From NCBI GenBank assembly GCA_017395105.1, contig JAFPWD010000038.1, positions 20,795 through 84,794 on the forward strand: DNA of 64,000 nt, read 5' to 3'. Numbering within the stretch: position 1 is the first letter of the stretch; each line of letters starts with the position of its first letter. The translations under genes were made by a program, and so were the position numbers. The notes under the pieces were generated by a model. The model had not been told where the DNA came from. It did no database searches and saw nothing but the letters and a program-made list of their open reading frames with translations. Shown one piece after another: positions 40,041 through 53,522 of this stretch. The stretch is from Clostridia bacterium. GTDB lineage: Bacteria; Bacillota; Clostridia; Christensenellales; CAG-138.

Positions 40041-40075
40041 GTTTTCCTCCGTTTTGCTGAATTGATATGGTGCGA

Positions 40076-41863
40076 TCATTTAATCAGATAGAAGCTGTTC
40101 TGCGCATCATGCAGCTTCTTATACTCGCCGCCAAGCGCGATAAGCTCATCGTGCGAGCCCATCTCCACTATGCCGCGCTCATCTATCACGGCAATCTTAT
40201 CGGCGTTTCTGACCGTGGAAAGCCTGTGCGCGATAACGAGCGTGGTCCTGCCCTTGCTGAGTCGCTCAAATGCGGCGGTTATGCGCGCTTCGGTTGCGGA
40301 GTCGAGCGCACTGGTAGCCTCATCAAGAATCAGTATGGGCGGGTTTTTCAGAAATATCCTCGCTATCGAAACGCGCTGCTTCTGTCCGCCCGAAAGCGTT
40401 ATGCCGCGCTCGCCAACGACAGTGTCGTATCCGTCGGGCATCCTCATGATATCATCGTGGATCTCGGCAGCGATGGCGGCTCGGACTATCTCCTCATCGG
40501 TGGCATCGATCCTGCCGTAGCGGATATTGTCCTTGATGCTGGCGGCAAACAGGAATACGTCCTGCTGAACTATGCCGATATTCCGGCGAAGCGATGCAAG
40601 AGTAACACTCTTGATGTCATTCCCGTCCACAGTGATGCTTCCGTCAACAGTTTCATAGAAACGTGGAAGCAGATGGCAGAGCGTTGTCTTACCGCCGCCA
40701 GAGGGGCCGACCAAAGCAACGGTCTCCCCTGACTTTATATGCAGGCTGATGGTTTCAAGCACGTTGCGCGGGGTCTCGTCGTCGGTTTGATAGGCGAACG
40801 TGACGTTATTGAAGTCGATCTCACCCTTAACCTCCTTTAGCTCGATTGCGTTCGGCGCATCCTCTATTTCAGGCTCGGTATCAAGAAGCTCGGTGAATCT
40901 CTTGAAGCCCGCCATGCCCATGGCGTATTGCTCGGAGAAGGCGGCAAGCTTTCGGATGGGGTTGGTGAAGGATGAAACGTACAGCAGGAAAACTATCAGT
41001 GTGGTCTGATCCATCCTGCCGCGCATGATGAGAAAGCCGCTGACGGTCAGCACCAGAACGCCCATGATGGAGGTGAAAAACTCCATGCCCGCATGGAAAA
41101 GACCCATGGTTTTATAATAGCGGCGCTTGGATTTGATAAAGATGCTGTTGCCCTTTTCAAACTTTTCTATCTCGTAGTTTTCGTTCGTGAATGCCTTTGC
41201 AACGCGCGCGCCGCTTATAGAGGACTCGATATCCGCATTGATTATCGCAACGCCCTCCTTGACCTTGCGCGATGTGCGGCTCATGCGGGTTCTAAGCTTC
41301 ATAACAAAAAGCATGAGTATAGGCACGGTGAGAATAAGAACGAGCGCAAGCCGCCATTCGATGAACAGCATCGCAACGAAGGCACCAAGGAAGGTGACTA
41401 TTGAAATGAACACATCCTCGGGGCCGTGGTGTGCAAGCTCCGTAACGTCGAATAGGTCGTTTGTGCAGCGGGAAAGAAGCTTGCCCGTCCTCGATTTATC
41501 ATAGAAGCTGAAGCCGAGCTTTTGAAGATGGGAAAATACATCCCTTCGCATATCGGCTTCAATATTAACGCCGAGCGTATGCCCAAGATAAGTAACGATG
41601 AAGGTCGCAAGTGTGCGCAGCAGATACATTCCGAAGCATATTGCCATAAGTATAAAGAACGGAGCATACTTCGGCGCATCCGGGGTCAGATAGTCGTAAA
41701 GTGCTTTTCTTGAAATGAGCGGGTACGAGATATCAACCGCGGAAATGAACAACGCACAGGCCATATCGGTCATGAAAAGACCCATGTGGGGCTTGTAGTA
41801 TGAAGCAAAACGCGACAGTGCGCCTTTTTTGTTCTTCTTAGGAGCATTTTCCATGTTCATCAC
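40076..41863 (-). CDS. ABC transporter, fused permease/ATPase (MsbA/multidrug-exporter type)
   Basis: There are six predicted N-terminal TM segments. It has Walker A 'GPSGGGKTT', signature 'LSGGQKQR' and Walker B 'ILILDEATSALD'. Confidence 0.9.
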   Translation of the reverse strand: MMNMENAPKKNKKGALSRFASYYKPHMGLFMTDMACALFISAVDISYPLISRKALYDYLTPDAPKYAPFFILMAICFGMYLLRTLATFIVTYLGHTLGVNIEADMRRDVFSHLQKLGFSFYDKSRTGKLLSRCTNDLFDVTELAHHGPEDVFISIVTFLGAFVAMLFIEWRLALVLILTVPILMLFVMKLRTRMSRTSRKVKEGVAIINADIESSISGARVAKAFTNENYEIEKFEKGNSIFIKSKRRYYKTMGLFHAGMEFFTSIMGVLVLTVSGFLIMRGRMDQTTLIVFLLYVSSFTNPIRKLAAFSEQYAMGMAGFKRFTELLDTEPEIEDAPNAIELKEVKGEIDFNNVTFAYQTDDETPRNVLETISLHIKSGETVALVGPSGGGKTTLCHLLPRFYETVDGSITVDGNDIKSVTLASLRRNIGIVQQDVFLFAASIKDNIRYGRIDATDEEIVRAAIAAEIHDDIMRMPDGYDTVVGERGITLSGGQKQRVSIARIFLKNPPILILDEATSALDSATEARITAAFERLSKGRTTLVIAHRLSTVRNADKIAVIDERGIVEMGSHDELIALGGEYKKLHDAQNSFYLIK

Positions 41864-43396: not shown

Positions 43397-44326
43397 TTAA
43401 AAATTCAACTCTTCCGCAACGATATACAGCGGACGGTTCTTGAGCTCGTCGTACATTCTGTTCATATAAGCACCCTGAATGCCGAGGAAAACGAAACCGA
43501 TGCCCATAAGCAGCGCAAGCCCGAAGAACATCCAGAGCAGCCCGGACACCTTCACGGAGCATATTGCAAGGATGATGAACACAAGGAATGCAAGCAGGCT
43601 CAGCGCCGAAACGCCCGCTCCGAAATAGCCGCAGAGCGTGAGCGGACGATCGGAGAAGCCGATGATGCCGTCCATGGCAAGCTTAATCATCTTCTTGAGC
43701 GTATACTTGGTTTTGCCGGCATAGCGCTCATTGCGCACGAACTCTATCGGAACGGCTTCAAAGCCCATCCAAGCGCTCATGCCGCGCAAAAAGCGGTTAT
43801 GCTCACGCATCTTGAGGAACACGTCCGCAACACGGCGATCGATAAGGCGGAAATCGCCGGTGTCAAGAGGGATCTCGGCGGCACTCATTGCCTTTAGCAC
43901 CCTGTAGTAGCAAGAAGCGGTAAATTTTTTAAGGAATGTCTCGCCCTGGCGCTTTACGCGCTTACCGTAGGCGATATCGGCACCGTTTTCCCATGCCCTG
44001 ACCATATCCTCGATGACCTCTGGCGGGTCCTGAAGGTCGACGTCGATTATTATAAGCGCATCGCCCTGTGCGGCATCCATGCCGCAGGTAACGGCGAGTT
44101 GATGGCCGAAGTTGCGGCTGAAGGAGCGCACCTTGACCTGAGGGTTGTCCTTCGCGATTTTGCGAAGTATTTTCATCGACTTATCGCGGCTGCCGTCGTT
44201 TACGTAGATGATCTCGTAATCGTATCCGATGCCGCGCATCACCTCGTCCATGCGCTTGAATGAGGTTTCAAGAACCTCCTCCTCGTTGTAGACGGGAACG
44301 ATGAGTGAAAGCATTGCGTTTTGCAT
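43397..44326 (-). CDS. GT2 glycosyltransferase, polyprenyl-phosphate sugar transferase type (GtrB/DPM1-like)
   Basis: It has 'LSLIVPVYNEEE', 'YVNDGSRD', 'DVDLQDPPE' and two C-terminal TM helices. Confidence 0.8.
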   Translation of the reverse strand: MQNAMLSLIVPVYNEEEVLETSFKRMDEVMRGIGYDYEIIYVNDGSRDKSMKILRKIAKDNPQVKVRSFSRNFGHQLAVTCGMDAAQGDALIIIDVDLQDPPEVIEDMVRAWENGADIAYGKRVKRQGETFLKKFTASCYYRVLKAMSAAEIPLDTGDFRLIDRRVADVFLKMREHNRFLRGMSAWMGFEAVPIEFVRNERYAGKTKYTLKKMIKLAMDGIIGFSDRPLTLCGYFGAGVSALSLLAFLVFIILAICSVKVSGLLWMFFGLALLMGIGFVFLGIQGAYMNRMYDELKNRPLYIVAEELNF

Positions 44327-44635
44327 ACTGTCTCCATTCTGCCGCCGAAGCGCATAGTCTTGTTTGAAGCTGCGGCAGCGATTATTCGTTTCTGTTTCTC
44401 GTTCACTGCTTGCGATCGTTCAAACAGAAACAACCTTTTTAAGTATATCATAATAAAGCTTTATTTGCAACCGCACATACGTATACAAACGCAGAGCGCA
44501 TTCCATATTTTATGACAAAAATTCCGTTCGTATTGACAAAGCACACGATCGGGTGATATTCTAATCGTTGGGAGAGCATCCCAAATACTGATTCGCCGCC
44601 GATACCTATTGGCGCAAGCGCGGCACGAAGATCAA

Positions 44636-45091
44636 ATGCGAGCATTCTTTTATACAATACTGCAATGTACATGGGGTCTTATCCAGACCCTCGTGGGGCT
44701 TGTTGTGTTTTTATTCAATATTCGCAGGCGGCATTTCTGCTACCACGGCGCGATCGTGACCGTATGGAGCTCTCTTTCGAGCGTTTCTCTTGGGCTGTTT
44801 CTATTCGTTTCGGGTGCTGAAAAACAGGTTCGCCGCGGGAAGGATAAGCTGAATGACGTTCCCGACAGCGAAACAGTAGTTCACGAATACGGTCACACAA
44901 TCCAATCGCTTATATTCGGCCCTGCGTACCTTTTGGTCGTTGGTCTCCCCTCCCTCATTTGGGCGAATCTTCCGTATTTTGTTAAAAAGCGCAGGCTCGG
45001 AACTCCGTATTCGGCATTTTGGACCGAAAAAAGCGCAAATATCCTTGGCGAACGCGCAACCGGCGAACGATCCTTTGGCGATAAGCTGTGA
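44636..45091 (+). CDS. Hypothetical small membrane protein with an HExxH motif
   Basis: It has several hydrophobic helices and 'VVHEYGHTIQS' between TM segments. The start is taken at the first ATG; the ORF track begins at TTG 44609. Confidence 0.5.
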   Translation: MRAFFYTILQCTWGLIQTLVGLVVFLFNIRRRHFCYHGAIVTVWSSLSSVSLGLFLFVSGAEKQVRRGKDKLNDVPDSETVVHEYGHTIQSLIFGPAYLLVVGLPSLIWANLPYFVKKRRLGTPYSAFWTEKSANILGERATGERSFGDKL

Positions 45092-45188
45092 GTCCAAACG
45101 ATATATTAGTTGTTTGCTATTGCTTTTTCGCCGCAAATGTTGTAAAACAGAATAAGTTATTATGCCAATAGGCAAATTGGAGGTTAAA

Positions 45189-45770
45189 ATGGATTTTATC
45201 GTTGAAGTATCCGCACGCCACGTGCATCTGACTCAAGAGCATGTTGAGATCCTTTTCGGCAAGGGTCACGAGCTCACCTTCGACCGTCCCCTTTCCCAGC
45301 CCGGCCAGTTTCTGAGCAAGGAAAAGGTCACCATCAAGAACGGCGATAGAAAGATCGAGCGCGTTTCCATTCTCGGACCCGTCCGCAAGGCTTCGCAGGT
45401 CGAGGTAAGCAAGACCGACAGCGTTGCGCTTCGCGCAGAGGGCTTCATTCGTGAGAGCGGCGATCTTGCAGGTACCGCCCCCATCGAGATCGAAGGACCC
45501 GAGGGAAGCGTTCAGCTTGAGGAAGGCCTCATCATCGCAAAGCGCCATATCCACATGACTCCCGAAGCCGCAGAAGAAGCCGGTCTCAAAGATAAGGACG
45601 TAGTCAGCGTTGCGGTCAACACCGAGGACAGAAAGACCATCTTCGGCGACGTTGTGGTTCGCGTTTCCCCGAGCTTCGCGCTCGCCATGCATATCGACAC
45701 CGACGAAGCAAATGGCGCAAACGTTCCGAGAAACGGATGTCAGGGTCATATCGTTTCCGTTGAGTTCTAA
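45189..45770 (+). CDS. pduL: Phosphate propanoyltransferase / phosphotransacylase PduL
   Basis: It has the duplicated PduL motifs 'VSARHVHLTQEHVEILFG' and 'IIAKRHIHMTPEAAEEAGL', plus 'AMHIDTDEANGA'. The ATG follows GGAGGT. Confidence 0.9.
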   Translation: MDFIVEVSARHVHLTQEHVEILFGKGHELTFDRPLSQPGQFLSKEKVTIKNGDRKIERVSILGPVRKASQVEVSKTDSVALRAEGFIRESGDLAGTAPIEIEGPEGSVQLEEGLIIAKRHIHMTPEAAEEAGLKDKDVVSVAVNTEDRKTIFGDVVVRVSPSFALAMHIDTDEANGANVPRNGCQGHIVSVEF

Positions 45771-45783
45771 TGATTGATGTCAC

Positions 45784-45817
45784 AAAGGACGGGCAATACC
45801 CGTCCTTTTTCGTTTTC
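45784..45817 (+). terminator. Intrinsic terminator after pduL (also downstream of the convergent HprK-like gene)
   Basis: AAAGGACGGG-CAAT-ACCCGTCCTTT is followed by TTCGTTTTC. Confidence 0.75.
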
Positions 45818-45873
45818 AATTCGTAATTCCAAAAGCTTTCTCCGAATGCCGAAGCCGGGCTATATGCTCATGA

Positions 45874-46632
45874 TTACTCCACAATGGAATCACGGGCGAA
45901 TTCGGCCGCATCGATCTGCATATTGCAGGCAAGCGCATAAACGGGCACGGTAAGAACCAGCTCCTGCAATAGGCCGAGCGCAACGGAAGCGAGTCTCGGA
46001 TCGGTCGGGATGTAGATGTTGGTTGAAAGGCTGATCAGCGCATCTAAAGGGGAAAGCCGAGCTATGGAATTGGTTTCACTTCGGCTGAGCACACAAATGG
46101 CTCCTATCGGCGACTCAATGTTGTTTCCGAGATGTTCTTTTCCGTTCCAAATGCTTCCGCATGCAGAAGCGCCGTTTTTATCGATGCGTATGAGCGGCTG
46201 ATCGCCGCTTATGATCCGCACTTCATTACCATAGGCCTTGCGCCAAAGCCGCGCATGCGTGCTCTTGCCCGTGCCGCTCGGAGCGGAAAACAGATATGCT
46301 TTCTTTCGGTAAGTGAGCGAGGCAGCATGAAGCGTTAAAACGTTTTTCGTCAGAAGCCAATCGGAAATATCCTGATGAATAAGAAAGAAACCCGACGGAT
46401 TCCCGTTCCCGAACGGATGCCCGTTTATCAGGTTTCTTTCGATGGTAACAGTATGCTCTATTTGATCTGGTGCGCTATTTGCGAGATACTTTTTAAAGTA
46501 TTTGCGGTTCAGGGTCGATCCATAGGAACGTACAGCAATAATATGACCGGCAAGGCAAATTGTCAGTTGATCGTACTTTCCACTATTATTCTTGGTCGGC
46601 TTCGATCCGCTCACGAAAAAACCTATCAGCAA
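45874..46632 (-). CDS. HPr-kinase-related P-loop protein (RiPP-cluster associated)
   Basis: 252 aa. It has 'LHAASLTYRKKAYLFSAPSGTGKSTHARLW' (a Walker A in an HprK C-domain-like context). The TTG start overlaps the precursor-peptide stop by 7 nt. It is the last gene of the operon. Confidence 0.7.
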   Translation of the reverse strand: MLIGFFVSGSKPTKNNSGKYDQLTICLAGHIIAVRSYGSTLNRKYFKKYLANSAPDQIEHTVTIERNLINGHPFGNGNPSGFFLIHQDISDWLLTKNVLTLHAASLTYRKKAYLFSAPSGTGKSTHARLWRKAYGNEVRIISGDQPLIRIDKNGASACGSIWNGKEHLGNNIESPIGAICVLSRSETNSIARLSPLDALISLSTNIYIPTDPRLASVALGLLQELVLTVPVYALACNMQIDAAEFARDSIVE

Positions 46633-46889
46633 ACAGAGGGAGTCGGAGTATCGTAAGCTCCGAACAGGATCTGCCCCAAACCAAACTGAATGTTATTGTC
46701 ATAGTTACACGAGCTATCGGTCCTGCATACATCCTGAGTGGGGCAGCCTATTCCCTGCGTGGGGCAACCCAAACCCTGCGTGGAGCATATAGGAGCACCG
46801 CTTAAGGATGATGAGTTAGTGAACAGCACAGAATCTACTGCGATGTTTATGAGCTTTTGCTCTGCGCGTACATAACGCTTTTTTTCCAT
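46626..46889 (-). CDS. Candidate RiPP precursor peptide (87 aa) with Cys-led heptad repeats
   Basis: A strong AGGAGGT RBS lies 9 nt upstream of the ATG. The leader-like N-terminus is followed by 'ICSTQGLG CPTQGIG CPTQDV CRTDSS CNYDNN ... TPTPSVC'. It sits between the rSAM/SPASM gene and the HprK-like gene. Confidence 0.75.
   Translation of the reverse strand: MEKKRYVRAEQKLINIAVDSVLFTNSSSLSGAPICSTQGLGCPTQGIGCPTQDVCRTDSSCNYDNNIQFGLGQILFGAYDTPTPSVC
46728..46787 (-). repeat. Three tandem ~21-nt coding repeats (TGC [TC]CC AC[GT] CAG G..) encoding C-[SP]-T-Q-[GD]-x-(G)
   Basis: By direct reading, the units are 46767-46787, 46746-46766 and 46728-46745. The shared cores are CCCTGCGTGG[GA]GCA, and CCTGAGTGGGGCA on the + strand. 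Confidence 0.85.
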
Positions 46890-46926
46890 AGTTGTTTTAC
46901 CTCCTGAAACATGAGATTAATCGATA

Positions 46927-48273
46927 TTATAGCACTTTATTCTCTAAAGTCAATAGTTTTTTTACGATCATCAAATATGCATTCCTTCTGCAATCTCTAA
47001 GCATGGAGGGGCAGAAAGCACCTTGAGTGCATTCGGGCAGATAAACGCATTGCAGGCATTCGGGGCATTTTTTCTCTCTAAGGTTATCTTCAATGAACCT
47101 GCGCCGCGGCTCCGACTCATTTTCATAGTCGAACAGACTGCCGATTTTTGCTTCATCCACAAGGTGCTCGCAGCAAAAGAGATCTCCGTTCGGGGTGATG
47201 ACAGAAGAACCGTTCGGAGTATCGACCATGCAGCGGTGAGTGCGCAGTCTGCCGGCGAATTCTCCGGCAAGCATGCCGAGTGCCTTAAGCTTTTCCTGAA
47301 GTTCTATCAAACGGGAATACAGGCGGTCGTTCGCTTCATCGGATATCCGGGAACCGGGGCTCGCAAACATATCGAAGGGATAGATCGAGATACGCTTATT
47401 GCCTTTGAATACCTCTGCAAGCTCATCGGTAAGCAAAAAGAGCTCATCAACATTGTTTTCATCGGCATTCAGTCTGAAATTGACAGCAGCGCCAAAATCG
47501 GTAAGCGCCTTTGCCGCATCAAGCGCGGCGGTATAATGATCGCGATCACGATCAACGTAAGCCTTGCGCTTATGGTATTCGCATTTTCTGCCGTCAAGAG
47601 TTATCTGAGCAGAATTTACGTGCCATTGCTTGACCGCCTTTTCGGCAAGCTCGCGAGTCATAAGCGATGCGTTTGTAACTATATCAGAAACGAACCCAAC
47701 GCCGTTATCATTCAGGCCGGCAATTATCCTGTCGATCACGCGCTCGGCAACAAGAGGCTCACCGCCAAACCAGCGAATGGAGATTGCTCCTTCTGTTTTT
47801 GTTTTAAGAATGTACTTAACGGTGGCATCCGCCGTTGCATCGTCCATGGTTTTATACTCGATGCCGTTTTCAAAGCAATAAAAGCAGCGGGCATTGCAGG
47901 CCGTTGTTGGAAGAATAACAAAGGAGCCGTGCTTTTTCGTGTCCTTAGGCGAAAGCAAATGCAAAATCTTTATTGCCGAAGAGAAAAGAGCAGCCTCATT
48001 TGCATCGGAACGCACTATAAAGCGCGATCCGATGAGCTCATCGATCGTGCCGTTATCGCCGGTGTAAACAAACTCATGGGGTTCCGAAAAGAGCTGCATC
48101 AGTTCCTCGGCATCGATAAGCTGTCGGGTGAAGGTGTTGAAAACGCGGGAAGCGGAACCGAGCCTGACGGGTAGCGCAAATAAAGACGGACGGCAAAGCG
48201 TGCCTAAAGGGGGCAGCTTGCCGTCTCCTATTGCTGACATCACGTTCCGATCGGGATGTAAAAGTGTTTTCAT
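46927..48273 (-). CDS. Radical SAM / SPASM-domain peptide-modifying maturase
   Basis: It has 'ILPTTACNARCFYCFENG' (CxxxCxxC) and 'WFGGEPL'. The C-terminal auxiliary-cluster cysteines are 'HRCMVDTPNGSSVITPNGDLFCCEH' and 'KKCPECLQCVYLPECTQGAFCP'. An ATGA overlap couples it to the upstream PqqD-like gene. Confidence 0.88.
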   Translation of the reverse strand: MKTLLHPDRNVMSAIGDGKLPPLGTLCRPSLFALPVRLGSASRVFNTFTRQLIDAEELMQLFSEPHEFVYTGDNGTIDELIGSRFIVRSDANEAALFSSAIKILHLLSPKDTKKHGSFVILPTTACNARCFYCFENGIEYKTMDDATADATVKYILKTKTEGAISIRWFGGEPLVAERVIDRIIAGLNDNGVGFVSDIVTNASLMTRELAEKAVKQWHVNSAQITLDGRKCEYHKRKAYVDRDRDHYTAALDAAKALTDFGAAVNFRLNADENNVDELFLLTDELAEVFKGNKRISIYPFDMFASPGSRISDEANDRLYSRLIELQEKLKALGMLAGEFAGRLRTHRCMVDTPNGSSVITPNGDLFCCEHLVDEAKIGSLFDYENESEPRRRFIEDNLREKKCPECLQCVYLPECTQGAFCPSMLRDCRRNAYLMIVKKLLTLENKVL

Positions 48274-48536
48274 TCTTCAAACGCGCCTGCTTTACGAAGA
48301 TTATCGATGACCATTGCGATATCCTCACGCATTTCGGCTTCATCGCCATCGAATTCTTCCTGAAGCTTCCTGAGGATCCCCTCCTCGTCGGTATCCTCGC
48401 TAAGGCAGTCGATGATAAATTTTGCTGTGGGATTGGAGCGAAGCATTCCGCGGAAAGCATTAGCCTCATCCGGCGCAAAAACAATTACGCTGTCTCCGTC
48501 TATCTCTACAACGGGCAGATCGTTTTTCAGTTTCAT
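48270..48536 (-). CDS. PqqD-family RiPP recognition element (RRE) protein
   Basis: 88 aa. '...VIVFAPDEANAFRGMLRSNPTAKFIIDCLSEDTDEEGILRKLQEEFDGDEAEMREDIAMVIDNLRKAGAFEE' has typical PqqD length and pattern. An AGGAGAG RBS is present. Confidence 0.75.
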   Translation of the reverse strand: MKLKNDLPVVEIDGDSVIVFAPDEANAFRGMLRSNPTAKFIIDCLSEDTDEEGILRKLQEEFDGDEAEMREDIAMVIDNLRKAGAFEE

Positions 48537-48591
48537 TTATCAACTCTCCTATCCGGCTCAAGGCGTAACGCGAGCCACGAAATTATTGTAA

Positions 48592-48620
48592 ATATTAACA
48601 CACTCCCCCGTGCTTGTCAA
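48592..48620 (-). promoter_or_regulatory. Near-consensus sigma-A promoter for the RiPP operon (-35 TTGACA, 17 nt, TGt-TAATAT)
   Basis: On the minus strand, TTGACA is at 48620-48615 and TAATAT at 48597-48592, with TG at -15/-14. It lies about 55 nt upstream of the PqqD-like ATG. Confidence 0.6.
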
Positions 48621-48630
48621 TCTTTTTTTG

Positions 48631-48659
48631 TTGCAAGCACCTTTTTGTTATGCTATAAT
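48631..48659 (+). promoter_or_regulatory. Near-consensus sigma-A promoter for the GT2 operon (-35 TTGCAA, 17 nt, -10 TATAAT)
   Basis: TTGCAA is at 48631-48636 and TATAAT at 48654-48659, 60 nt upstream of the ATG at 48720. It is only 10 bp from the divergent -35. Confidence 0.6.
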
Positions 48660-48719
48660 ATGCCCGTATTATACTGAATTTGCCGCGGGCTTACCTCCTA
48701 CGGCACGGAACACAGAAGC

Positions 48720-49775
48720 ATGAATGATACAAAACCGTATTTCTCGGTCATCCTTCCCGTATACAACGGCGCTCAGACCTTGAGCAGGGCTATCGTGAGT
48801 ATTCTTGCGCAAACTTTTTCAGATTACGAATTGCTTGTTATAGAAAACGCATCCGAGGACAACAGCCTTGATATAGCAAAAGCATACGAAAAAAGCTTCG
48901 ATAAGGTTCGTGTTTTTCACTCTCGGCAGAAGGGCGTTTCCAAGGCGAGAAACATAGGTCTTGATAATGCTTCCGGCGAATACGCTGTTTTCCTCGATGC
49001 GGATGATTTTTATATGCCGAATGCGCTCAAGACCATGCGTGCCGCGATCGAGGATGAAGACCCCGATATTCTTATAGCCGCGTTCACCAACTATGCAAGC
49101 AACGAAAGCGAAAGAAGAGTTCGCGCAAACGGGCGCGACCTGTTTCTGGCGATGCTCGACCCCCTGAGATACTATTCTCGCATAGTGGACGGAAACGAGG
49201 TTAACGAGTTTTTGCTCAGGCATCAGTGCGCCAAGGCTTACAGGCGCAAAATGCTGCTCGATTCGCAGGTTCGTTTCAACGAGGCTTGCTCGATGTACGT
49301 TGACCTTATCTTCAACGAAGCGGCATATTCCTCATGCACAAATGCTGTGTTGATCTTCAAAAAGCTTTATCAGTACAACCACGTTTCCGGCTCCATTGTC
49401 AATCGCACAGGCCCCGCTTTTATCAAGGATGCCGTAGCTGCGTTCGGGGTGCTCGTTTCTCAGCTCGATTCGCTCGACGGCGAGCGCAGTGATGCCGTAA
49501 TCTTTTATGCATTCATGGTTATAATGCAAATGCTGAAGGTTCAGGCAAATGCTCCTATAGAAGCGAGCAATTCTATGCTCGAAGCTTTTTTAAGCTCGGT
49601 TGATGCGCAAAGAGTTATATGCTCCGTCACCGATCGTGAGCTTCATCCGAACCCCGCTGTAAACGATCAGCTTCGATGCATACTCAATATGCTTACCAAT
49701 AATGATATTCCAGGCGTGCTGACTCTTTTGAGCAATGCAGGCAAATCCCGCGCAAGGAGCAAAAAGAATGAATGA
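48720..49775 (+). CDS. GT2-family glycosyltransferase (soluble, 351 aa)
   Basis: It has 'FSVILPVYNGAQTL', 'IENASEDNS', 'ARNIGL' and 'FLDADDF' (DxD). Confidence 0.85.
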   Translation: MNDTKPYFSVILPVYNGAQTLSRAIVSILAQTFSDYELLVIENASEDNSLDIAKAYEKSFDKVRVFHSRQKGVSKARNIGLDNASGEYAVFLDADDFYMPNALKTMRAAIEDEDPDILIAAFTNYASNESERRVRANGRDLFLAMLDPLRYYSRIVDGNEVNEFLLRHQCAKAYRRKMLLDSQVRFNEACSMYVDLIFNEAAYSSCTNAVLIFKKLYQYNHVSGSIVNRTGPAFIKDAVAAFGVLVSQLDSLDGERSDAVIFYAFMVIMQMLKVQANAPIEASNSMLEAFLSSVDAQRVICSVTDRELHPNPAVNDQLRCILNMLTNNDIPGVLTLLSNAGKSRARSKKNE

Positions 49776-51312
49776 GCCTAAAATCAGCGTAATATCGCCC
49801 GTGCATAATTCCGAGGAGTATCTGAAGCGCTGCGTGGATTCTATACTCAGCCAAACGCTTAGCGATATTGAAGTAATCTTCATAGACGATGCGTCCGAGG
49901 ACGGTTCCTACGATATACTTAAAAGCTATGCCGACTCCGCCCCCCGTGTTTTGATAATAAAGCTTGATAAAAACATAGGCGCGGGCGGCGCGCGCAATCT
50001 TGGCATCGAAGCGGCGCGCGGAAAATACCTTTCATTCGTAGATTCGGACGATACGATCGCGCCCGATTTTCTTGAGCTGCTGTATGCTAAAGCCGAGGAG
50101 ACCTCAGCCGATATTATTAAAGGCTCCTGTTTCGAGGTGTTTTCAAACGATCTCGATTCAGAATTCAGCTTGCAGAATATGCGGCGCCAAAACAGTTTTA
50201 TCAAAAAAGCGATGGAATCCGGCAAGAACACCTGCGTATTCTTCTACAATAGGCATTTTTCTGCCATCTATCGTCATGCTTTTATCGATAAACATAGTAT
50301 TCGCTACGGAAATACCATCGTTGGAGCGGACAGCATATTTCTATTAAAGACCGCAGTGCTTTCCGAATCCTTTGTATTTGAGCCCTCGGCGCGATACAAC
50401 TATTATCATAGAGCGGCATCTCAATCGCTCATCATATCTCAAGAACGCTATGAGAGCAGCAGTGCATCGCTGAAGGAACAGTTTGATTTTCTTGGAAACG
50501 CCGCCATAAAGCCCGAATCTATTTTGAGAGTTGCAAATCGCAGGCTAAGATTCGGACTTAGAATTCATTCTTATCTTCTCTTCTACAAGTATCACGGTAT
50601 CGATGCCGAGGCATACGCGCAAAAGCTGTACGAGATGGCAAGCGGCTTCAAATATGCTGATAAGCTCGGCGCCAAGGATTATGCAATATGCGTTTTTTTG
50701 AGCTCGAACGGCTCCGAGAACCTCTCTATGCTGGGCATGTCAAGCTCATTCGATGATGAACTATACGTTCAACTCGCCAATTTCGAGCGCCTTGCAAAGC
50801 ATATTGTCGATGCTTCCGCTCAGCAGGATCGGGCAATCGATTATCTTACAACAGTCATCATCCACATGCGAAAAAAGCTTGTATTTCGCGCACGCGGCGA
50901 GGTGCGCAAATTCGATCAACGGCTCATCAGCGAGATAATCGATGCGCTTTCGTGCCTGAACACTCCTGAATTGCTCCCCCGCCTTCCCTTCGATGTTATA
51001 GCCATTGTTGAATATAAAGCGGATCTGCCTCCGCTCATTCACATTAGTTCCAAGATCAATTCCTTCACTGACATTGTTTCTCTCCTGAGCAAAACGGTGG
51101 ATCTGCTTTCCGAGCATCCCAATGCAGCTTCGGAGTACTATGATTTTGCGATCAAAATTTACAAGAAGCTTTTGCTTGCTTCCAACTCTTCTATTATAAA
51201 AAGAGACAAGCAGTTTATCACGGCTATGGCCAAGTTAGCTCTTGCCGCCGATTCGCTGAACTGCTCCTTAAGCAGAAAGAAACTAACGGAGGTCTGTCGT
51301 AATGCATCCTAA
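49768..51312 (+). CDS. GT2-family glycosyltransferase with a ~280-aa C-terminal non-GT domain (paralogue A)
   Basis: It has 'ISVISPVHNSEEYL', 'IDDASEDGS', 'ARNLGI' and 'YLSFVDSDDTIAPDFLELLY'. The ATG follows AAGGAG and overlaps the previous gene by 8 nt. Confidence 0.85.
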   Translation: MNEPKISVISPVHNSEEYLKRCVDSILSQTLSDIEVIFIDDASEDGSYDILKSYADSAPRVLIIKLDKNIGAGGARNLGIEAARGKYLSFVDSDDTIAPDFLELLYAKAEETSADIIKGSCFEVFSNDLDSEFSLQNMRRQNSFIKKAMESGKNTCVFFYNRHFSAIYRHAFIDKHSIRYGNTIVGADSIFLLKTAVLSESFVFEPSARYNYYHRAASQSLIISQERYESSSASLKEQFDFLGNAAIKPESILRVANRRLRFGLRIHSYLLFYKYHGIDAEAYAQKLYEMASGFKYADKLGAKDYAICVFLSSNGSENLSMLGMSSSFDDELYVQLANFERLAKHIVDASAQQDRAIDYLTTVIIHMRKKLVFRARGEVRKFDQRLISEIIDALSCLNTPELLPRLPFDVIAIVEYKADLPPLIHISSKINSFTDIVSLLSKTVDLLSEHPNAASEYYDFAIKIYKKLLLASNSSIIKRDKQFITAMAKLALAADSLNCSLSRKKLTEVCRNAS

Positions 51313-52825
51313 AATTTCGATAATAATACCCGTGTACAACTCGCAAAAATATATTTGCGCCTGTATCGACTCGATACTTGCACAATCGTTCACCGATTTT
51401 GAGCTTATCCTTATTGACGATTGCAGCACGGACGGTTCTGCGCGGATCATCGATGAATACCGCGCACAGGATGACAGGATCCATATCATCCACCTTGAAA
51501 ATAATTCAGGGCAGGGCTATGCGCGAAACGTCGGCATCGACAGCGCAATGGGGGAGTATCTTTCCTTCATTGATTCGGATGATATCATTGCTCCAGATTT
51601 CTTTGAGCTTCTTTATAAAAGAGCTGTTGAAAGCGGCGCCGAGATCGTAAAGGGACTCGGCTGTGTCGTTCATAAGGACAGCTCCATAAAAGATACGGAC
51701 AAGCACGCCTTCAAGGAGGTCAATCATGCTATACGGCAGTATCTTATCGGTAAGAGCCCCCGCCCTTTCTGTTTCTACGCAGAGCACTGGAGCGCGATAT
51801 ATAAGCGCGATTTTCTGAATGAGCACGGTATACGCTACGGCTTATCCAGAGTGGGGCAGGACACAACCTTTCTTTTGAAGGTATGCGCATATTTCAGGAG
51901 TATCGAGATCGTTGATGATGCTGTTTACTACTATATCCAGCGCAGCGGCTCAGTTATTCACTCATACGATTCAAAGCGTTTCCGTGCGCGGCTTCACTCA
52001 CTTGAGGAACAGATAGACTTTGCCAATACCGTGGAAGCCGCTGCAGCGCTTTTCCTTTCCCATATCCAAAATAGTATTAACAATTTGCTTGCGCATCATG
52101 CATATCTGAGCGTTCGCATTCCCGAAGCTGAGTCGGCAGCCTTGCTTGAGCGCCTGTATGCTGCCTTGCTCAAATACCGCTATATGCACGAAACGTCGTA
52201 TCGGGACTATTCATTGCGTGCTTTTATGGAGTCAAACGGTCATGTAAATATAAGCTTGAAAGGGTTCATCGTCGGCAATGAGGATAATACCGAATGGCAG
52301 CTCATATCGTTTAACAGATTTATTGACTACATAAACGCCGATGAAGCTTTTTTTGATCAGGGCTTGGAATATTTGGGAGCATCTATACCGTTTATGTTCC
52401 TCATGGCATTCGCAAATCATCCCAACGCCGCTCCCGAAATGTATATGGAGTTTGCCTCCAAACTGTGCAGCATCCTGATGCGTTTCAAGCAACCGGACGC
52501 CTTATGCCGCAAAATGCCGATGTGCGATTATCTTGTCAGATACGGAGCCGATATCTTTCCCCACGGCTGCAGAAAGTATGCCGATGCGTATCTCAATTAT
52601 TTCTATAGTATCACCGATCAGTTATCGAGGATAAACGCATTGCTCAGGGAGCATCCGGGTGCCGCAAAGTGTTTCCATATCGGAAAGCTGCTCACGGCAC
52701 ATGGGTTCAGAATTCTGAAAATGCTGCGATCCGCCGACAAAAAAGCAGTTGATCCGCTCCTGACCGCGTTTGCTTCAGAGGTGGCGAAATTTGACGCACT
52801 GAACAACGCAATAGAAACGAGATAA
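51302..52825 (+). CDS. GT2-family glycosyltransferase with a ~280-aa C-terminal non-GT domain (paralogue B)
   Basis: It has 'ISIIIPVYNSQKY', 'IDDCSTDGS', 'ARNVGI' and 'YLSFIDSDDIIAPDFFELLY'. The C-terminal 'NHPNAAPEMYMEFASKL' matches 'EHPNAASEYYDFAIKI' in paralogue A. It overlaps the previous gene by 11 nt. Confidence 0.85.
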   Translation: MHPKISIIIPVYNSQKYICACIDSILAQSFTDFELILIDDCSTDGSARIIDEYRAQDDRIHIIHLENNSGQGYARNVGIDSAMGEYLSFIDSDDIIAPDFFELLYKRAVESGAEIVKGLGCVVHKDSSIKDTDKHAFKEVNHAIRQYLIGKSPRPFCFYAEHWSAIYKRDFLNEHGIRYGLSRVGQDTTFLLKVCAYFRSIEIVDDAVYYYIQRSGSVIHSYDSKRFRARLHSLEEQIDFANTVEAAAALFLSHIQNSINNLLAHHAYLSVRIPEAESAALLERLYAALLKYRYMHETSYRDYSLRAFMESNGHVNISLKGFIVGNEDNTEWQLISFNRFIDYINADEAFFDQGLEYLGASIPFMFLMAFANHPNAAPEMYMEFASKLCSILMRFKQPDALCRKMPMCDYLVRYGADIFPHGCRKYADAYLNYFYSITDQLSRINALLREHPGAAKCFHIGKLLTAHGFRILKMLRSADKKAVDPLLTAFASEVAKFDALNNAIETR

Positions 52826-52902
52826 TCATAGGCGATATTGGCCGGAGTAAAGGCGGCAGGCGCTCGATCGCACCGCCGCAAAAAACAGCTTAATTCAAGT
52901 CG

Positions 52903-52932
52903 AAAGCCGCCTCGGAGCACCGAAGCGGCTTT
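52903..52932. terminator. Hairpin between the convergent GT2 operon and rplT
   Basis: AAAGCCGC-C-TCGG-AGCA-CCGA-A-GCGGCTTT. The U-tracts are limited to the stem ends. Confidence 0.5.
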
Positions 52933-52946
52933 AAATATCTGCTTAT

Positions 52947-53306
52947 TTAGGCCTTGAGAGCGTTATTTGCAACGTTCACAAGCTCATTGAATGCGTTCAT
53001 ATCGGTGATAGCGAGATCCGCGAGGACCTTGCGGTTCATATCGACGCCCGCGAGCTTGAGGCCGTGGATGAGGTTGGAGTAATTGGTGCCGCAGAGCCTT
53101 GCACCCGCATTGATACGGGCGATCCAAAGGCGGCGATACTCCCTCTTCTTGAGCTTACGGCCAACATAGGCGTAAGCCATGGACTTCATGACCTGCTGGC
53201 TTGCAGCGCGGTAGAGCTTGCTCTTTGCTCCATAGTAGCCCTTAGCGAGCTTAAAAACCTTGCGACGCTTCTTAACGGCGTTGACTGCTCTTTTGATCCT
53301 TGCCAT
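52947..53306 (-). CDS. rplT: 50S ribosomal protein L20
   Basis: It begins 'MARIKRAVNAVKKRRKV.KLAKGYYGAKS' and has 'RRLWIARINA'. Confidence 0.97.
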   Translation of the reverse strand: MARIKRAVNAVKKRRKVFKLAKGYYGAKSKLYRAASQQVMKSMAYAYVGRKLKKREYRRLWIARINAGARLCGTNYSNLIHGLKLAGVDMNRKVLADLAITDMNAFNELVNVANNALKA

Positions 53307-53321
53307 TTTTCCTTGTCCTCC

Positions 53322-53522
53322 TTATCTCTTGTAGGGGATCAGCTTGCTGATCTTGGACTGTTCTTCCTCAGCAATGTAAGCCGTCTTGCGAAGGTTACGG
53401 GTACGCTTGGTGGTTTTCTTGGTAAGGATGTGGCTCTTGTAAGCCCTGCCCCTCTTGATCTTGCCGCTCTTAGTGAAGCTGAAACGCTTTGCGGCGCCCC
53501 TGTGGGTCTTGATTTTCGGCAT
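53322..53522 (-). CDS. rpmI: 50S ribosomal protein L35
   Basis: It begins '[32 protein letters not shown]'. Confidence 0.97.

What the first reader, a model, noticed from the sequence alone, without database searches (positions are those of the whole stretch)
45874..48536. Compact four-gene RiPP-like operon (RRE - rSAM/SPASM - precursor - HprK-like) lacking protease, exporter or immunity genes
Observed: four minus-strand genes are tightly packed. There is an ATGA overlap between the PqqD-like and rSAM genes, a 37-nt gap to the precursor, and a 7-nt overlap into the HprK-like gene. The operon has its own near-consensus promoter and shares a terminator hairpin at 45784-45808. It is inserted between housekeeping pduL and a GT2 block. 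No peptidase, ABC/MFS exporter or immunity gene is present. Established knowledge, from memory: comparative genomics (Haft and Basu 2011; the TIGRFAMs 'HprK-related kinase A/B' families) has noted PqqD + rSAM/SPASM + HprK-like cassettes. To my knowledge their chemistry and function remain uncharacterised. Inference: the product may act intracellularly, as a cofactor or signal, rather than as a secreted bacteriocin.
Basis: partly seen in the sequence, partly recalled or inferred. Interest (0 to 1): 0.85.

Follow-up and report, generated by a model that had tools for sequence, protein, structure and literature searches.

The report
Kinase, radical-SAM and glycosyltransferase peptide cluster
The four genes are real and belong to a rare seven-gene cluster in gut/rumen Clostridia that probably makes a phosphorylated, sulfur-crosslinked and sugar-decorated ribosomal peptide, a so far undescribed offshoot of the 'linear polyphosphorylated peptide' family reported in 2026.

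Summary
Four packed minus-strand genes (45874-48536) encode a PqqD-type RRE, a radical SAM/SPASM enzyme, an 87-aa precursor and an HprK/PEPCK-fold P-loop protein (Pfam ScmC family).

The unit is larger than reported. Three divergently transcribed GT2 genes (48720-52825) accompany the cassette in 7 of 7 independent relatives whose outer flanks all differ. A search starting from the GT2 also leads back to the cassette.

The kinase-RRE pair and the leader peptide tie the system to LPP clusters (Popov et al. 2026). I find these in at least 591 loci, mostly gut and rumen Clostridia, as kinase-RRE-signal peptidase-ABC-nucleotidyltransferase. The window's clade lacks the last three genes and instead has the rSAM and the GT2s.

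Core cysteines occur in family precursors only where an rSAM is present (6/6 against 0/16). Eight distinct precursors of the window's clade end in Cys, and Ser26 at the leader-core junction is invariant.

Most likely pathway, inferred and not shown: the RRE binds the leader, the kinase phosphorylates Ser26, the rSAM makes Cys thioethers, and TarS/RmlT-like GT2s add sugars. The fate of the product (secreted or intracellular) is open.

Verdict: new variant of a known kind, interest 0.6.

The parts
48270..48536 (-). Discrete RiPP recognition element (PqqD family, lasso-B1-like), 88 aa
   Evidence: Pfam PqqD E 2.4e-11. Best NCBIfam hit is lasso_PqqD_Strm, 6e-8. A family profile's best PDB matches are the lasso B1 proteins TbiB1 (1e-6) and TfuB1 (1e-4). 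The stop overlaps the rSAM start (ATGA).
46927..48273 (-). Radical SAM/SPASM peptide maturase, 448 aa
   Evidence: CNARCFYC at residues 126-133 plus a C-terminal Cys cluster. Pfam Radical_SAM, and SPASM weakly. Best NCBIfam hits are TIGR04463, Clo7bot, CefB, geopeptide and PapB maturases, all below cut-off. No RRE homology in the N-terminal 116 aa.
46626..46889 (-). Precursor peptide, 87 aa: leader of about residues 1-24, invariant Ser26, core with 6 Cys (CSTQG/CPTQG repeats), hydrophobic FGLGQILFGAY motif, PT-rich tail, C-terminal Cys
   Evidence: Strong AGGAGG ribosome-binding site. Alignments A1 and A6. Further relatives. Leader homologous to LPP-like leaders by hhalign, prob 87.8%, E 3.4e-6.
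45874..46632 (-). HprK/PEPCK-fold P-loop phosphotransferase (Pfam ScmC family); start is either TTG 46632 or GTG 46614
   Evidence: AlphaFold2 model pLDDT 91. Foldseek: ATP-PEPCK 3e-8, HprK/P 3.6e-5. PF27840 on 99%-identical P0121. Invariant H102, the S119-T125 Walker A motif and D144.
48592..48620 (-). Promoter-like site for the RRE-rSAM operon (TTGACA-17-TAATAT with TG)
   Evidence: A promoter-like site of at least 9/12 pointing toward the RRE gene is present in all 7 relatives.
46926..46953 (-). Internal promoter-like site for the precursor gene (TTGACT-16-TATAAT with TG), inside the 3' end of the rSAM gene
   Evidence: 11 of 12 matches. Conserved at the same position (36-41 nt before the ATG) in L093, L095, L001 and L003.
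48631..48659 (+). Divergent promoter-like site for the GT2 operon (TTGCAA-17-TATAAT with TG), back to back with the cassette promoter
   Evidence: The back-to-back arrangement recurs in relatives.
48720..49775 (+). GT2 glycosyltransferase 1, 351 aa
   Evidence: Pfam Glycos_transf_2 E 1e-35. Orthologous GT2 next to the cassette in every relative.
49735..51312 (+). GT2 glycosyltransferase 2, 525 aa: GT-A domain plus an all-helical C-terminal domain; soluble
   Evidence: Pfam E 1e-39. AlphaFold2 pLDDT 92.5. Foldseek top hits are RmlT, TarS, TarP and CgT. No TM segment. The full-length homolog P0245 (41%) lies next to the same cassette.
51302..52825 (+). GT2 glycosyltransferase 3, 507 aa, paralog of GT2-2
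   Evidence: Pfam E 2e-38. 32-33% identical to GT2-2 over the full length.
45784..45808 (.). Palindromic GC-rich hairpin between the convergent pduL and kinase genes
   Evidence: Scored as a terminator on the plus strand only. The stem also forms in the minus transcript, but a poor U-tract follows it.

Best explanation
The finding is one arm of a seven-gene RiPP biosynthetic cluster at 45874-52825. The cluster comprises an RRE, an rSAM/SPASM maturase, a precursor and an HprK-like kinase on the minus strand. Three soluble GT2 glycosyltransferases are transcribed divergently from back-to-back promoters.

The precursor also has a strong promoter of its own.

Proposed pathway:
1. The lasso-B1-type RRE binds the conserved leader (Y6, R8, A9, L13, N15, F23).
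2. The HprK-like kinase phosphorylates a Ser at the leader-core junction, as LppK and the paeninodin kinases do. The candidate is the invariant Ser26, two residues after the conserved F23-T24.
3. The rSAM/SPASM enzyme, translationally coupled to the RRE, converts core cysteines into thioether cross-links. This probably includes the conserved C-terminal Cys.
4. The TarS/RmlT-like GT2s add a short glycan to the peptide. Possible acceptors are the phosphate, Ser/Thr of the PT-rich tail, or the terminal Cys.

The clade has lost the signal-peptidase-like leader peptidase, the ABC exporter and the nucleotidyltransferase that sister clusters carry. The product is therefore either kept with its leader inside the cell or handled by unlinked genes.

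Shown here: gene content, folds, conservation of the seven-gene unit, leader homology, and the Cys-rSAM correlation. Inferred: every chemical step and its site.
For: The unit is conserved. RRE-rSAM-precursor-kinase plus a divergent block of 2-3 GT2 genes occurs in the window/L093, L001, L003, L005, L091, L092 and L095. The rSAMs are 47-63% identical and the outer flanks differ in each.
- GT2s next to the cassette score 196-522 bits on a window-derived GT2 HMM, against 110 bits or less for other GT2s. Only 3 of 80 LPP-like loci have such a GT2 at E<1e-5.
- Reverse test: the GT2-2 homolog P0245 leads to the same layout.

The kinase assignment rests on fold and family. Invariant His, Walker A and Asp are retained.

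Link to LPP clusters:
- In 85 loci the ScmC-family protein is followed by PqqD, a 148-aa archaeal-type signal peptidase (TIGR02228, 8e-7), an ABC exporter and NTP_transf_5.
- This is the lppK-B-S-D-N gene set and order of PMC13381572, where LppK polyphosphorylates core Ser3.
- The leaders are homologous by hhalign: prob 87.8%, E 3.4e-6.

The RRE profile is closest to lasso B1 proteins.

rSAM role:
- The nearest NCBIfam models are all Cys-peptide maturases.
- In LPP-like precursors, core Cys is present in 6 of 6 from loci with an rSAM and 0 of 16 from loci without.
- All window-clade cores with a known rSAM have at least 3 Cys.
- One relative (P0392) has the C-terminal Cys as its only Cys.
- The rSAM has no RRE of its own, and its start overlaps the RRE stop.

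The GT2s keep the DxD motif. They are soluble and resemble wall-teichoic-acid glycosyltransferases, which decorate a phosphate-rich polymer in the cytoplasm.

The divergent promoters and the precursor promoter are conserved.
Against: - No chemistry was observed.
The link runs through gene architecture and the clostridial relatives.
- An ordinary HMM of clostridial LPP-like leaders does not hit the window's peptide (E>1). Only the profile-profile comparison does.
- The leader has YxRA where the lasso/LPP RRE motif has YxxP.
- By fold and sequence the GT2s look like cell-wall polymer glycosyltransferases, not known peptide glycosyltransferases. SunS and ThuS are absent from the hits.
- LPP and lasso clusters are known to sit inside polysaccharide loci without proven functional linkage.
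- One database relative of the precursor (P0396) has no Cys and no terminal Cys. Its completeness and context are unknown.
- Without a peptidase or exporter the end product is undefined.
Confidence: 0.5

Rival explanations
1. Only the four-gene cassette is the biosynthetic unit, making a phosphorylated and/or thioether-bridged peptide. The GT2 block is a cell-wall or capsule glycopolymer locus that merely travels with it, as LPP and paeninodin clusters sit inside capsule loci in Bacilli.
For: - GT2-2 is structurally closest to RmlT, TarS and TarP, which glycosylate teichoic acid, and by sequence to chondroitin/heparosan synthases.
- Popov et al. note that LPP clusters are embedded in polysaccharide loci and that their boundaries are hard to define.
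- L005 has UDP-glucose dehydrogenase and BacA nearby.
- The window has a GtrB-like GT2 1.5 kb from the cassette, beyond pduL.
Against: - 7 of 7 independent loci keep exactly this GT2 family directly and divergently next to the RRE gene, while everything beyond changes.
- Back-to-back promoters are conserved.
- No flippase, polymerase, initiating transferase or other polysaccharide-export gene accompanies the GT2s in the window island.
- In L007 GT2 genes are interleaved with the RRE gene inside the cluster.
Confidence: 0.2
2. It is a mycofactocin-like pathway. The long peptide is mainly a scaffold. The rSAM/SPASM enzyme, with its RRE, modifies the invariant C-terminal Cys. A small C-terminal fragment is released by an unlinked peptidase, then glycosylated by the GT2s (as MftF, a GT2, does for mycofactocin; from memory) and used inside the cell as a cofactor or signal.
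For: - There is no exporter or immunity gene.
- The C-terminal Cys is conserved in 8 distinct precursors, and it is the only Cys in P0392.
- Discrete RRE + rSAM/SPASM + GT2 is the mycofactocin gene logic (established knowledge, from memory).
- L005 adds a methyltransferase next to the GT2s.
Against: - There is no MftD- or MftE-like gene and no linked peptidase.
- No mycofactocin maturase model is among the 25 best of 58 NCBIfam hits, and the nearest models are multi-Cys peptide maturases.
- Cores are Cys-rich with repeated CPTQG/CPSNC motifs, which a mere spacer would not need.
- Sister clusters with homologous leaders carry exporters and a signal-peptidase-type leader peptidase, which points to an extracytoplasmic product for the family.
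- This scheme gives the kinase no role.
Confidence: 0.12
3. The kinase activates Ser/Thr by phosphorylation for elimination to dehydro-amino acids, which core Cys then attack (lanthionine-like rings, as in class III/IV lanthipeptides). The rSAM does something else.
For: Cores contain both Ser/Thr and Cys (CSTQG and CPTQG in the window, CPSNC in L095). Kinase-initiated dehydration is established chemistry in lanthipeptides (from memory).
Against: - No lyase or cyclase domain is present in the island.
- Characterised HprK-like RiPP kinases leave a stable phosphate or polyphosphate on one Ser.
- LPP-like precursors served by the same kinase family have no Cys at all when no rSAM is present.
Confidence: 0.05
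4. It is a decaying remnant of an LPP-type cluster that lost its peptidase, exporter and nucleotidyltransferase and no longer makes a product.
For: Three of the five core LPP genes are absent.
Against: - All four ORFs are intact.
- The same reduced gene set is kept in at least 7 lineages with 47-63% identical rSAMs.
- Catalytic motifs, promoters and ribosome-binding sites are conserved.
Confidence: 0.03

Closest known systems
Linear polyphosphorylated peptide (LPP) clusters, lppA-K-B-S-D-N (Popov et al., Nat Commun 2026, PMC13381572)
   Same: - A discrete lasso-type RRE is paired with an HprK-like kinase.
- The precursor has a conserved N-terminal leader starting M(E)KK.Y and a variable C-terminus. 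The leader is homologous by profile comparison to the clostridial LPP-like leaders.
- A conserved Ser lies just after the leader.
- The cluster is associated with glycosyltransferase-rich loci.
   Different: - No archaeal-type signal peptidase (LppS), no MsbA-like exporter (LppD) and no NTP_transf_5 (LppN).
- It has an rSAM/SPASM maturase, a Cys-rich core with a C-terminal Cys, and a dedicated GT2 block.
- The gene order is B-rSAM-A-K rather than A-K-B-S-D-N.
- The leader has YxRA instead of YxxP.
Phosphorylated lasso peptides of the paeninodin/pseudomycoidin type (HPr-kinase-like PadeK/ThcoK/PsmK with B1 RRE; as reviewed in PMC7533575 and PMC13381572)
   Same: An HprK-like kinase acts on a Ser of an RRE-bound precursor. 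The RRE is closest to lasso B1 proteins. Glycosylation following phosphorylation is known for pseudomycoidin.
   Different: No lasso cyclase (Asn-synthetase-like C) and no B2 peptidase, so there is no lariat. The glycosylation candidates here are GT2s, not a nucleotidyltransferase.
Sactipeptide/ranthipeptide-type rSAM/SPASM maturases (NCBIfam TIGR04463, Clo7bot TIGR04334, CefB, PapB)
   Same: An rSAM core plus a SPASM Cys cluster, with a Cys-rich precursor encoded next door. Presence of the rSAM correlates perfectly with Cys in the core across the family.
   Different: - Scores are 85-124 bits against cut-offs of 340-600, so it is not a member of any named family.
- The RRE is discrete and not detectable in the enzyme's N-terminus.
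- It is combined with a kinase and GT2s.
SynChlorMet cassette (ScmC/ScmD/ScmE/ScmF) and the HPr-rel-A and GRASP-with-SPASM systems of TIGRFAMs/NCBIfam
   Same: The same domain vocabulary: an HprK-related P-loop protein, a PqqD-family protein and an rSAM/SPASM enzyme. The fourth protein falls in Pfam PF27840 'ScmC'.
   Different: All equivalog scores are far below cut-off: ScmC 13.9/125, ScmD 15/100, ScmE 42/400, HprK_rel_A 16/200, HprK_rel_B 19.5/200. There is one rSAM here, not two (the two-rSAM composition of SCM is from memory). The taxa differ (from memory).
Glycocins (GT2 S/O-glycosyltransferases such as SunS and GccA; glycocin F carries S-GlcNAc on its C-terminal Cys; from memory)
   Same: GT2 enzymes sit next to a Cys-containing ribosomal peptide whose last residue is Cys.
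   Different: The GT2s are not SunS/ThuS-like by sequence or fold. There is no C39-peptidase ABC transporter or thiol-disulfide isomerase. An rSAM and a kinase are present.
Mycofactocin (MftA-F; from memory)
   Same: A discrete RRE, an rSAM/SPASM enzyme, an invariant C-terminal residue of the precursor, a GT2 and no exporter.
   Different: There is no MftD or MftE. The C-terminus is Cys rather than Gly-Val-Tyr. The core is long and Cys-rich. A kinase is present. The rSAM is not near MftC.

Membership tests
LPP (linear polyphosphorylated peptide) BGC, PMC13381572 | HprK-like kinase encoded with a discrete RRE | tested here: met
   PEPCK/HprK fold. Same Pfam ScmC family, E 1e-30 to 1e-44, as the kinases of clostridial K-B-S-D-N clusters. 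RRE: Pfam PqqD. Direct comparison with Paenibacillus LppK was not possible.
LPP (linear polyphosphorylated peptide) BGC, PMC13381572 | Archaeal-type signal peptidase I (LppS) as leader peptidase | tested here: not met
   An HMM of the 148-aa SpI-like proteins finds nothing in the 64-kb window. The same HMM finds it in 50 of the 80 genome loci scanned.
LPP (linear polyphosphorylated peptide) BGC, PMC13381572 | MsbA-like exporter LppD and NTP_transf_5 LppN | tested here: not met
   No NTase hit in the window. The only nearby ABC exporter (40076-41863) has a median 26% identity to cluster-type exporters, against 46% among themselves.
LPP (linear polyphosphorylated peptide) BGC, PMC13381572 | Leader with the YxxP...FET..S motif | tested here: inconclusive
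   hhalign against clostridial LPP-like leaders gives prob 87.8%, E 3.4e-6 over 27 columns. A plain HMM search gives E>1. The window leader has Y6-V-R-A9 and F23-T24-N25-S26.
LPP (linear polyphosphorylated peptide) BGC, PMC13381572 | (Poly)phosphorylation of a core Ser | not testable with these tools
   Needs mass spectrometry of co-expressed precursor, RRE and kinase.
Sactipeptide/ranthipeptide rSAM-SPASM RiPPs | rSAM CxxxCxxC motif plus a SPASM auxiliary-cluster domain | tested here: met
   C126/C130/C133. C-terminal Cys at 348, 367, 368, 406, 409, 415, 421 and 428. Pfam Radical_SAM, and SPASM below cut-off at 15.2 bits.
Sactipeptide/ranthipeptide rSAM-SPASM RiPPs | Membership of a named maturase family (score above the curated cut-off) | tested here: not met
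   The best hit is TIGR04463, 124 bits against a cut-off of 525. PapB scores 85 against 340.
Sactipeptide/ranthipeptide rSAM-SPASM RiPPs | Cys-to-carbon thioether links in the product | not testable with these tools
   Supported only indirectly by the Cys-rSAM co-occurrence, 6/6 against 0/16.
SynChlorMet cassette (TIGR04248-04251) | ScmC, ScmD and ScmE equivalog scores above cut-off | tested here: not met
   13.9/125, 15/100 and 42.4/400 bits.
HPr-rel-A system / GRASP-with-SPASM system | HprK-related kinase A or B and PqqD_rel_X above cut-off | tested here: not met
   16/200, 19.5/200 and 16.1/35 bits. No ATP-grasp gene in the island.
Lasso peptide BGC | Asn-synthetase-like macrolactam cyclase and B2 transglutaminase-like peptidase | tested here: not met
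   All seven island genes are accounted for by other domains, or have no domain hit in the case of the precursor.
Glycocin BGC | SunS/GccA-type peptide glycosyltransferase | tested here: not met
   No SunS or ThuS among the PDB sequence hits or the top 50 fold hits.
Mycofactocin system | MftC-type maturase, MftD/MftE, and the C-terminal GVY of MftA | tested here: not met
   No mycofactocin maturase model is among the 25 best of 58 NCBIfam hits, so it scores below 36 bits. No such genes are in the island. The precursor ends in Cys.
   41.6 bits against a cut-off of 349.

The most novel reading that the evidence does not exclude
The peptide is a ribosomally made primer for a phosphate-linked glycan. 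The HprK-like kinase puts one or several phosphates on Ser26. The teichoic-acid-type (RmlT/TarS-like) and chondroitin-synthase-like GT2s then build an oligo- or polysaccharide on that phosphate, or on the terminal Cys. The rSAM staples the Cys-rich core. The result would be a bacterial 'proteophosphoglycan' RiPP that stays cell-associated, which would explain the missing peptidase and exporter.
Probability: 0.15. Interest if true: 0.85.

Novelty: new variant of a known kind. Interest (0 to 1): 0.6.

Why it matters
If the pathway is as proposed, one ribosomal peptide would carry three modification chemistries: Ser phosphorylation, radical thioether formation and glycosylation. In the literature searched, these were not found combined in one RiPP.

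It would also show that the kinase-RRE module of lasso and LPP peptides is a portable unit that has been recombined with radical SAM enzymes.

The survey extends LPP-type clusters, described in Bacilli and other Bacillota, to at least 591 loci that lie mainly in gut and rumen Clostridia. There the biological role of these peptides (biofilm, capsule or competition) is equally unknown.

The clade's loss of peptidase and exporter gives a natural test of whether such peptides must leave the cell to act.

Tried and rejected
- **GT2s as SunS/ThuS-type peptide S-glycosyltransferases.** Rejected. The PDB sequence search and the fold search return chondroitin synthase, GalT1/CgT, RmlT, TarS and TarP instead.
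- **A hidden RRE in the rSAM N-terminus.** None found: hhalign prob 0.25%.
- **The ABC exporter plus M42 peptidase at 39024-41863 as the missing exporter and peptidase.** Rejected. The ABC is only 26% identical to cluster-type exporters. The pair recurs only in the near-identical strain L093/L094, not in L001, L003, L005 or L095 within the flanks fetched.
- **Sequence searches of the kinase against PDB.** The single-sequence search gave nothing. The profile search gave only marginal P-loop hits at E 0.16 or worse. Only the fold search was informative.
- **Single-sequence PDB search of the RRE.** Nothing useful. The profile search worked.
- **A plain HMM of clostridial LPP-like leaders.** It does not reach the window's peptide.
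- **A regex for the published LPP motif.** It found only the window's own clade.
- **Rfam scan of 44500-53500.** No RNA family.
- **Search for an operator.** No convincing direct or inverted repeat in the divergent promoter region.
- **tRNA or integrase at the island borders.** None in the window.
- **Literature.** The search on ScmC/SynChlorMet was swamped by unrelated acronyms. No paper in the library links HprK-like proteins with radical SAM RiPPs.
- **P0244 (GT2 homolog).** Its contig ends before the position where a cassette would lie, so it is uninformative.

Full report
**1. What is in the sequence**

They are an 88-aa PqqD-family protein (48270-48536), a 448-aa radical SAM/SPASM protein (46927-48273), an 87-aa ORF (46626-46889) and a 252-aa P-loop protein (45874-46632).

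- Pfam confirms PqqD (E 2.4e-11) and Radical_SAM (E 8.6e-11).
- The rSAM has CNARCFYC at residues 126-133 and a C-terminal Cys cluster typical of SPASM domains.
- The ATGA overlap and the 37-nt gap are exact.
- The 7-nt overlap into the fourth gene assumes a TTG start. Gene callers start the 99%-identical protein at the GTG six codons downstream. The first 17 residues are disordered in the structure model. The start therefore stays open.
- The promoter at 48620-48592 is present.
- A stronger site, TTGACT-16-TATAAT with an extended -10 TG, lies at 46953-46926, just before the precursor gene. It recurs at the same position in four relatives.
- The hairpin at 45784-45808 qualifies as a terminator for pduL on the plus strand. 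On the minus transcript the stem forms but the U-tract is poor.

**2. The fourth protein**

Sequence models give only weak hints: HprK_rel_B 4e-4 and ScmC 0.026, both far below cut-off. PDB sequence searches give nothing useful.

An AlphaFold2 model built on 49 homologs is confident (pLDDT 91.3, pTM 0.87). It matches ATP-dependent PEP carboxykinases (E 3e-8) and HprK/P (E 3.6e-5). This is the PEPCK/HprK P-loop phosphotransferase fold.

The family is Pfam PF27840 'ScmC'. It has 1466 database homologs at E 1e-3 or better, and the few that carry a source name are called 'hypothetical protein'. It keeps an invariant His, the Walker A motif SGTGKST and an Asp. I read these as the HprK/P catalytic constellation; that reading is inference from memory of HprK/P.

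**3. The small ORF is a real precursor**

Relatives of the rSAM at 47-63% identity carry a small ORF in the same position. An exhaustive search of 1.84 billion representatives with the peptide found only a handful more.

All share a leader, M-x-K-K-x-Y-x-R-A-x-x-x-L-x-N ... F-[T/S]-x-S. Residues K3, K4, Y6, R8, A9, L13, N15, F23 and S26 are invariant in alignment A6. A hypervariable core of about 30-70 residues follows.

Eight distinct complete precursors end in Cys: window, L001, L003, L005, L092, L095/P0393, P0392 and P0397. In P0392 this is the only Cys. One entry, P0396, lacks Cys altogether. Its completeness could not be checked.

The closer relatives also share a hydrophobic motif (FGLGQILFGAY in the window) and a Pro/Thr-rich tail.

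**4. The unit is seven genes**

In every relative with enough contig, a block of two or three GT2 genes sits directly and divergently upstream of the RRE gene. Some of these genes carry two GT2 domains. The relatives are L001, L003, L005, L091, L092, L095 and the near-identical L093/L094.

The genes beyond the unit differ in each:

| Locus | Outer flanks |
|---|---|
| L001 | Na/H antiporter; integrase |
| L003 | EamA; a second ScmC-rSAM pair |
| L005 | methyltransferase; UDP-glucose dehydrogenase; BacA |
| L095 | M15 peptidase; dockerin proteins |
| window | pduL; rplT-infC |

Further evidence for the linkage:
- These GT2s score 196-522 bits on an HMM made from the window's GT2s, against 110 bits or less for other GT2s.
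- Only 3 of 80 unrelated ScmC loci have such a GT2 at E<1e-5.
- Starting from the other side, the 41%-identical full-length homolog of GT2-2 (P0245) lies next to the same cassette.
- The intergenic region holds back-to-back divergent promoter-like sites in the window and its relatives.
- The island has lower G+C (0.46-0.49) than its surroundings.

So the GT2 block is not a neighbour into which the cassette was inserted. It is the other arm of the cluster.

**5. What the GT2s look like**

All three have GT-A domains with the DxD motif and no membrane segment.

The GT2-2 model is confident (pLDDT 92.5). It shows a GT-A domain followed by an all-helical domain. Its nearest structures are RmlT, TarS and TarP, which are cytoplasmic glycosyltransferases that decorate wall teichoic acid, and the streptococcal CgT/GalT1. 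By sequence the nearest are chondroitin and heparosan synthases. Known peptide glycosyltransferases such as SunS do not appear.

**6. The wider family and the link to LPPs**

A scan of one genome per species with the ScmC alignment found at least 591 loci. Most are in rumen and gut Clostridia: Ruminococcus, Oscillospiraceae, Lachnospiraceae, Christensenella and Solobacterium.

Clustering the neighbours in 85 loci shows a dominant arrangement:
1. ScmC-family kinase
2. PqqD
3. a 148-aa protein matching archaeal-type signal peptidase I (TIGR02228, E 8e-7; SipW 1.5e-3)
4. an ABC exporter
5. NTP_transf_5

This is the gene set and order of the lpp clusters described by Popov et al. in 2026. There the HprK-like LppK places up to four phosphates on Ser3 of the core. 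The SpI-like LppS removes the leader after Thr-1. LppB is a lasso-type RRE (PMC13381572).

Small ORFs upstream of the clostridial kinases have the leader MEKYE..EMEV..FE.EDVI.TS. Many carry the YxxP motif that lasso-type RREs bind. A profile-profile comparison aligns this leader with the window clade's over 27 columns (prob 87.8%, E 3.4e-6). A plain HMM search does not reach it.

The RRE profile's best solved relatives are the lasso B1 proteins TbiB1 and TfuB1.

**7. Role of the rSAM**

A minority of these loci also carry an rSAM that is 29-37% identical to the window's in those with full-length hits (L007, L011, L018, L037, L040, L052, L058, L065). Some relatives have lost the kinase (L008, L009).

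Among precursors with the clostridial leader, Cys occurs in the core in 6 of 6 from loci with an rSAM and 0 of 16 from loci without. Eleven of the 16 have at least 2.5 kb of flank on both sides. This amounts to about p = 1e-5 if the precursors are treated as independent.

All window-clade cores with a known rSAM have at least 3 Cys. The nearest NCBIfam models are all Cys-peptide maturases: TIGR04463, Clo7bot, CefB, geopeptide and PapB. The anaerobic sulfatase maturase scores 42 bits against a cut-off of 349.

The enzyme has no detectable RRE of its own and is translationally coupled to the discrete RRE. I therefore take thioether formation on Cys as its most likely function.

**8. What is missing**

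The window has no SpI-like peptidase and no NTP_transf_5. The ABC exporter 4 kb away (40076-41863, with an M42 peptidase) is only 26% identical to the cluster-type exporters, which share 46% among themselves. It is conserved only in the near-identical strain.

Sister clusters have a peptidase and an exporter; this clade has replaced them with GT2s. Whether the missing functions are encoded elsewhere in the genome cannot be seen from 64 kb.

**9. Mechanism, with status of each step**

Shown:
- gene content, folds and conservation of the seven-gene unit
- leader homology
- the Cys-rSAM correlation
- promoter conservation

Inferred:
- The RRE binds the leader.
- The kinase phosphorylates the junction Ser. 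The candidate is Ser26, two residues after the conserved F23-T24. In LppA the acceptor is three residues after the F-E-T cleavage site.
- The rSAM cross-links Cys, including the terminal one.
- The GT2s glycosylate the peptide, in place of the nucleotidyltransferase of LPP and lasso systems.

Rivals are listed separately. The main one is that the GT2 block serves a cell-wall polymer and only travels with the cassette.

**10. Comparison with what is known, and novelty**

The cluster works like a hybrid of an LPP/paeninodin-type kinase-RRE module and a ranthipeptide/sactipeptide-type maturase. It is not a member of either as defined. Three of five LPP core genes are absent, and the rSAM is below every curated cut-off.

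The searchable literature holds no report that joins an HprK-like kinase with a radical SAM RiPP maturase. The LPP paper does not mention radical SAM enzymes.

The source is an uncultured 'Clostridia bacterium' MAG. There the rSAM is annotated only as a 4Fe-4S binding protein and the precursor as hypothetical.

I rate it a new variant of a known kind, with interest 0.6. It is a real, conserved and testable cluster with an unusual combination of chemistries and an unexplained lack of processing and export. It remains one more uncharacterised RiPP architecture until a product is seen.

Noticed in passing
window 46926-46953 (-); L001, L003, L093, L095 at the equivalent position: A near-consensus extended -10 promoter for the precursor gene lies inside the 3' end of the rSAM coding sequence, with the TATAAT overlapping the rSAM stop codon. 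It is conserved 36-41 nt before the precursor ATG in four relatives. This suggests the precursor is transcribed in excess of the enzymes.
   Followed up: partly
window 48537-48719 and the equivalent intergenic regions of L001, L003, L005, L091, L092, L095: Back-to-back divergent promoter-like sites, with -35 boxes about 10 bp apart in the window, drive the RRE operon and the GT2 operon. Sites of at least 9/12 in both directions occur in all seven relatives. No operator-like repeat was found.
   Followed up: partly
L011-L090 (genome-contig scan): LPP-type clusters (kinase-RRE-SpI-like peptidase-ABC-NTP_transf_5) with short acidic precursors (leader MEKYE..EMEV..FE.EDVI.TS) are very common in rumen and gut Clostridia: at least 591 loci among species representatives. 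A few hits are in MAGs labelled Muribaculaceae, Bacteroidales, Planctomycetales, Atopobiaceae or actinobacterium. These could reflect transfer or mis-binning.
   Followed up: partly
L007 6001-8298; L008 6001-13632: More distant relatives point to sulfation. In L007 the rSAM is fused to a Sulfotransfer_2 domain, and GT2 genes are interleaved with the RRE gene. In L008 the rSAM, a GT4, a 48-aa Cys-rich precursor and the RRE sit next to CysD/CysNC (PAPS synthesis) and a TauE-type transporter, with no kinase.
   Followed up: no
L003 1-1754: A second, paralogous ScmC-family gene (28% identical) with its own radical SAM gene lies 4 kb from the cassette in the same contig, beyond the GT2 block and an EamA transporter.
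   Followed up: no
window 43397-45091: A GtrB/ArnC-like GT2 with C-terminal membrane segments (43397-44326, minus) and a 160-aa hydrophobic ORF with no family (44609-45091, plus) lie between gap (GAPDH) and pduL, 1-2.5 kb from the cassette. They are conserved in the near-identical strain only.
   Followed up: no
L093 1126-5378 versus window 52826-52946: A 98%-identical strain carries four extra genes (DUF4367, an ECF-type sigma factor, a PT-repeat protein and a 378-aa ORF) between the last GT2 gene and rplT. The window has only about 120 nt there, so the island border is variable within the species.
   Followed up: no
P0390 and P0396: P0390 is a frameshifted copy of the window's precursor (identical to residue 50, then out of frame), probably an assembly error. 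P0396 has the same leader but a Gly-rich core without any Cys and without the terminal Cys. It is either truncated or a true exception to the C-terminal Cys rule.
   Followed up: no
window 39024-41863 (-): An ABC half-transporter (ABC_membrane + ABC_tran) overlaps by 4 nt with a downstream M42 aminopeptidase gene, which is an unusual pairing. By identity it is unrelated to the cluster-type exporters.
   Followed up: partly
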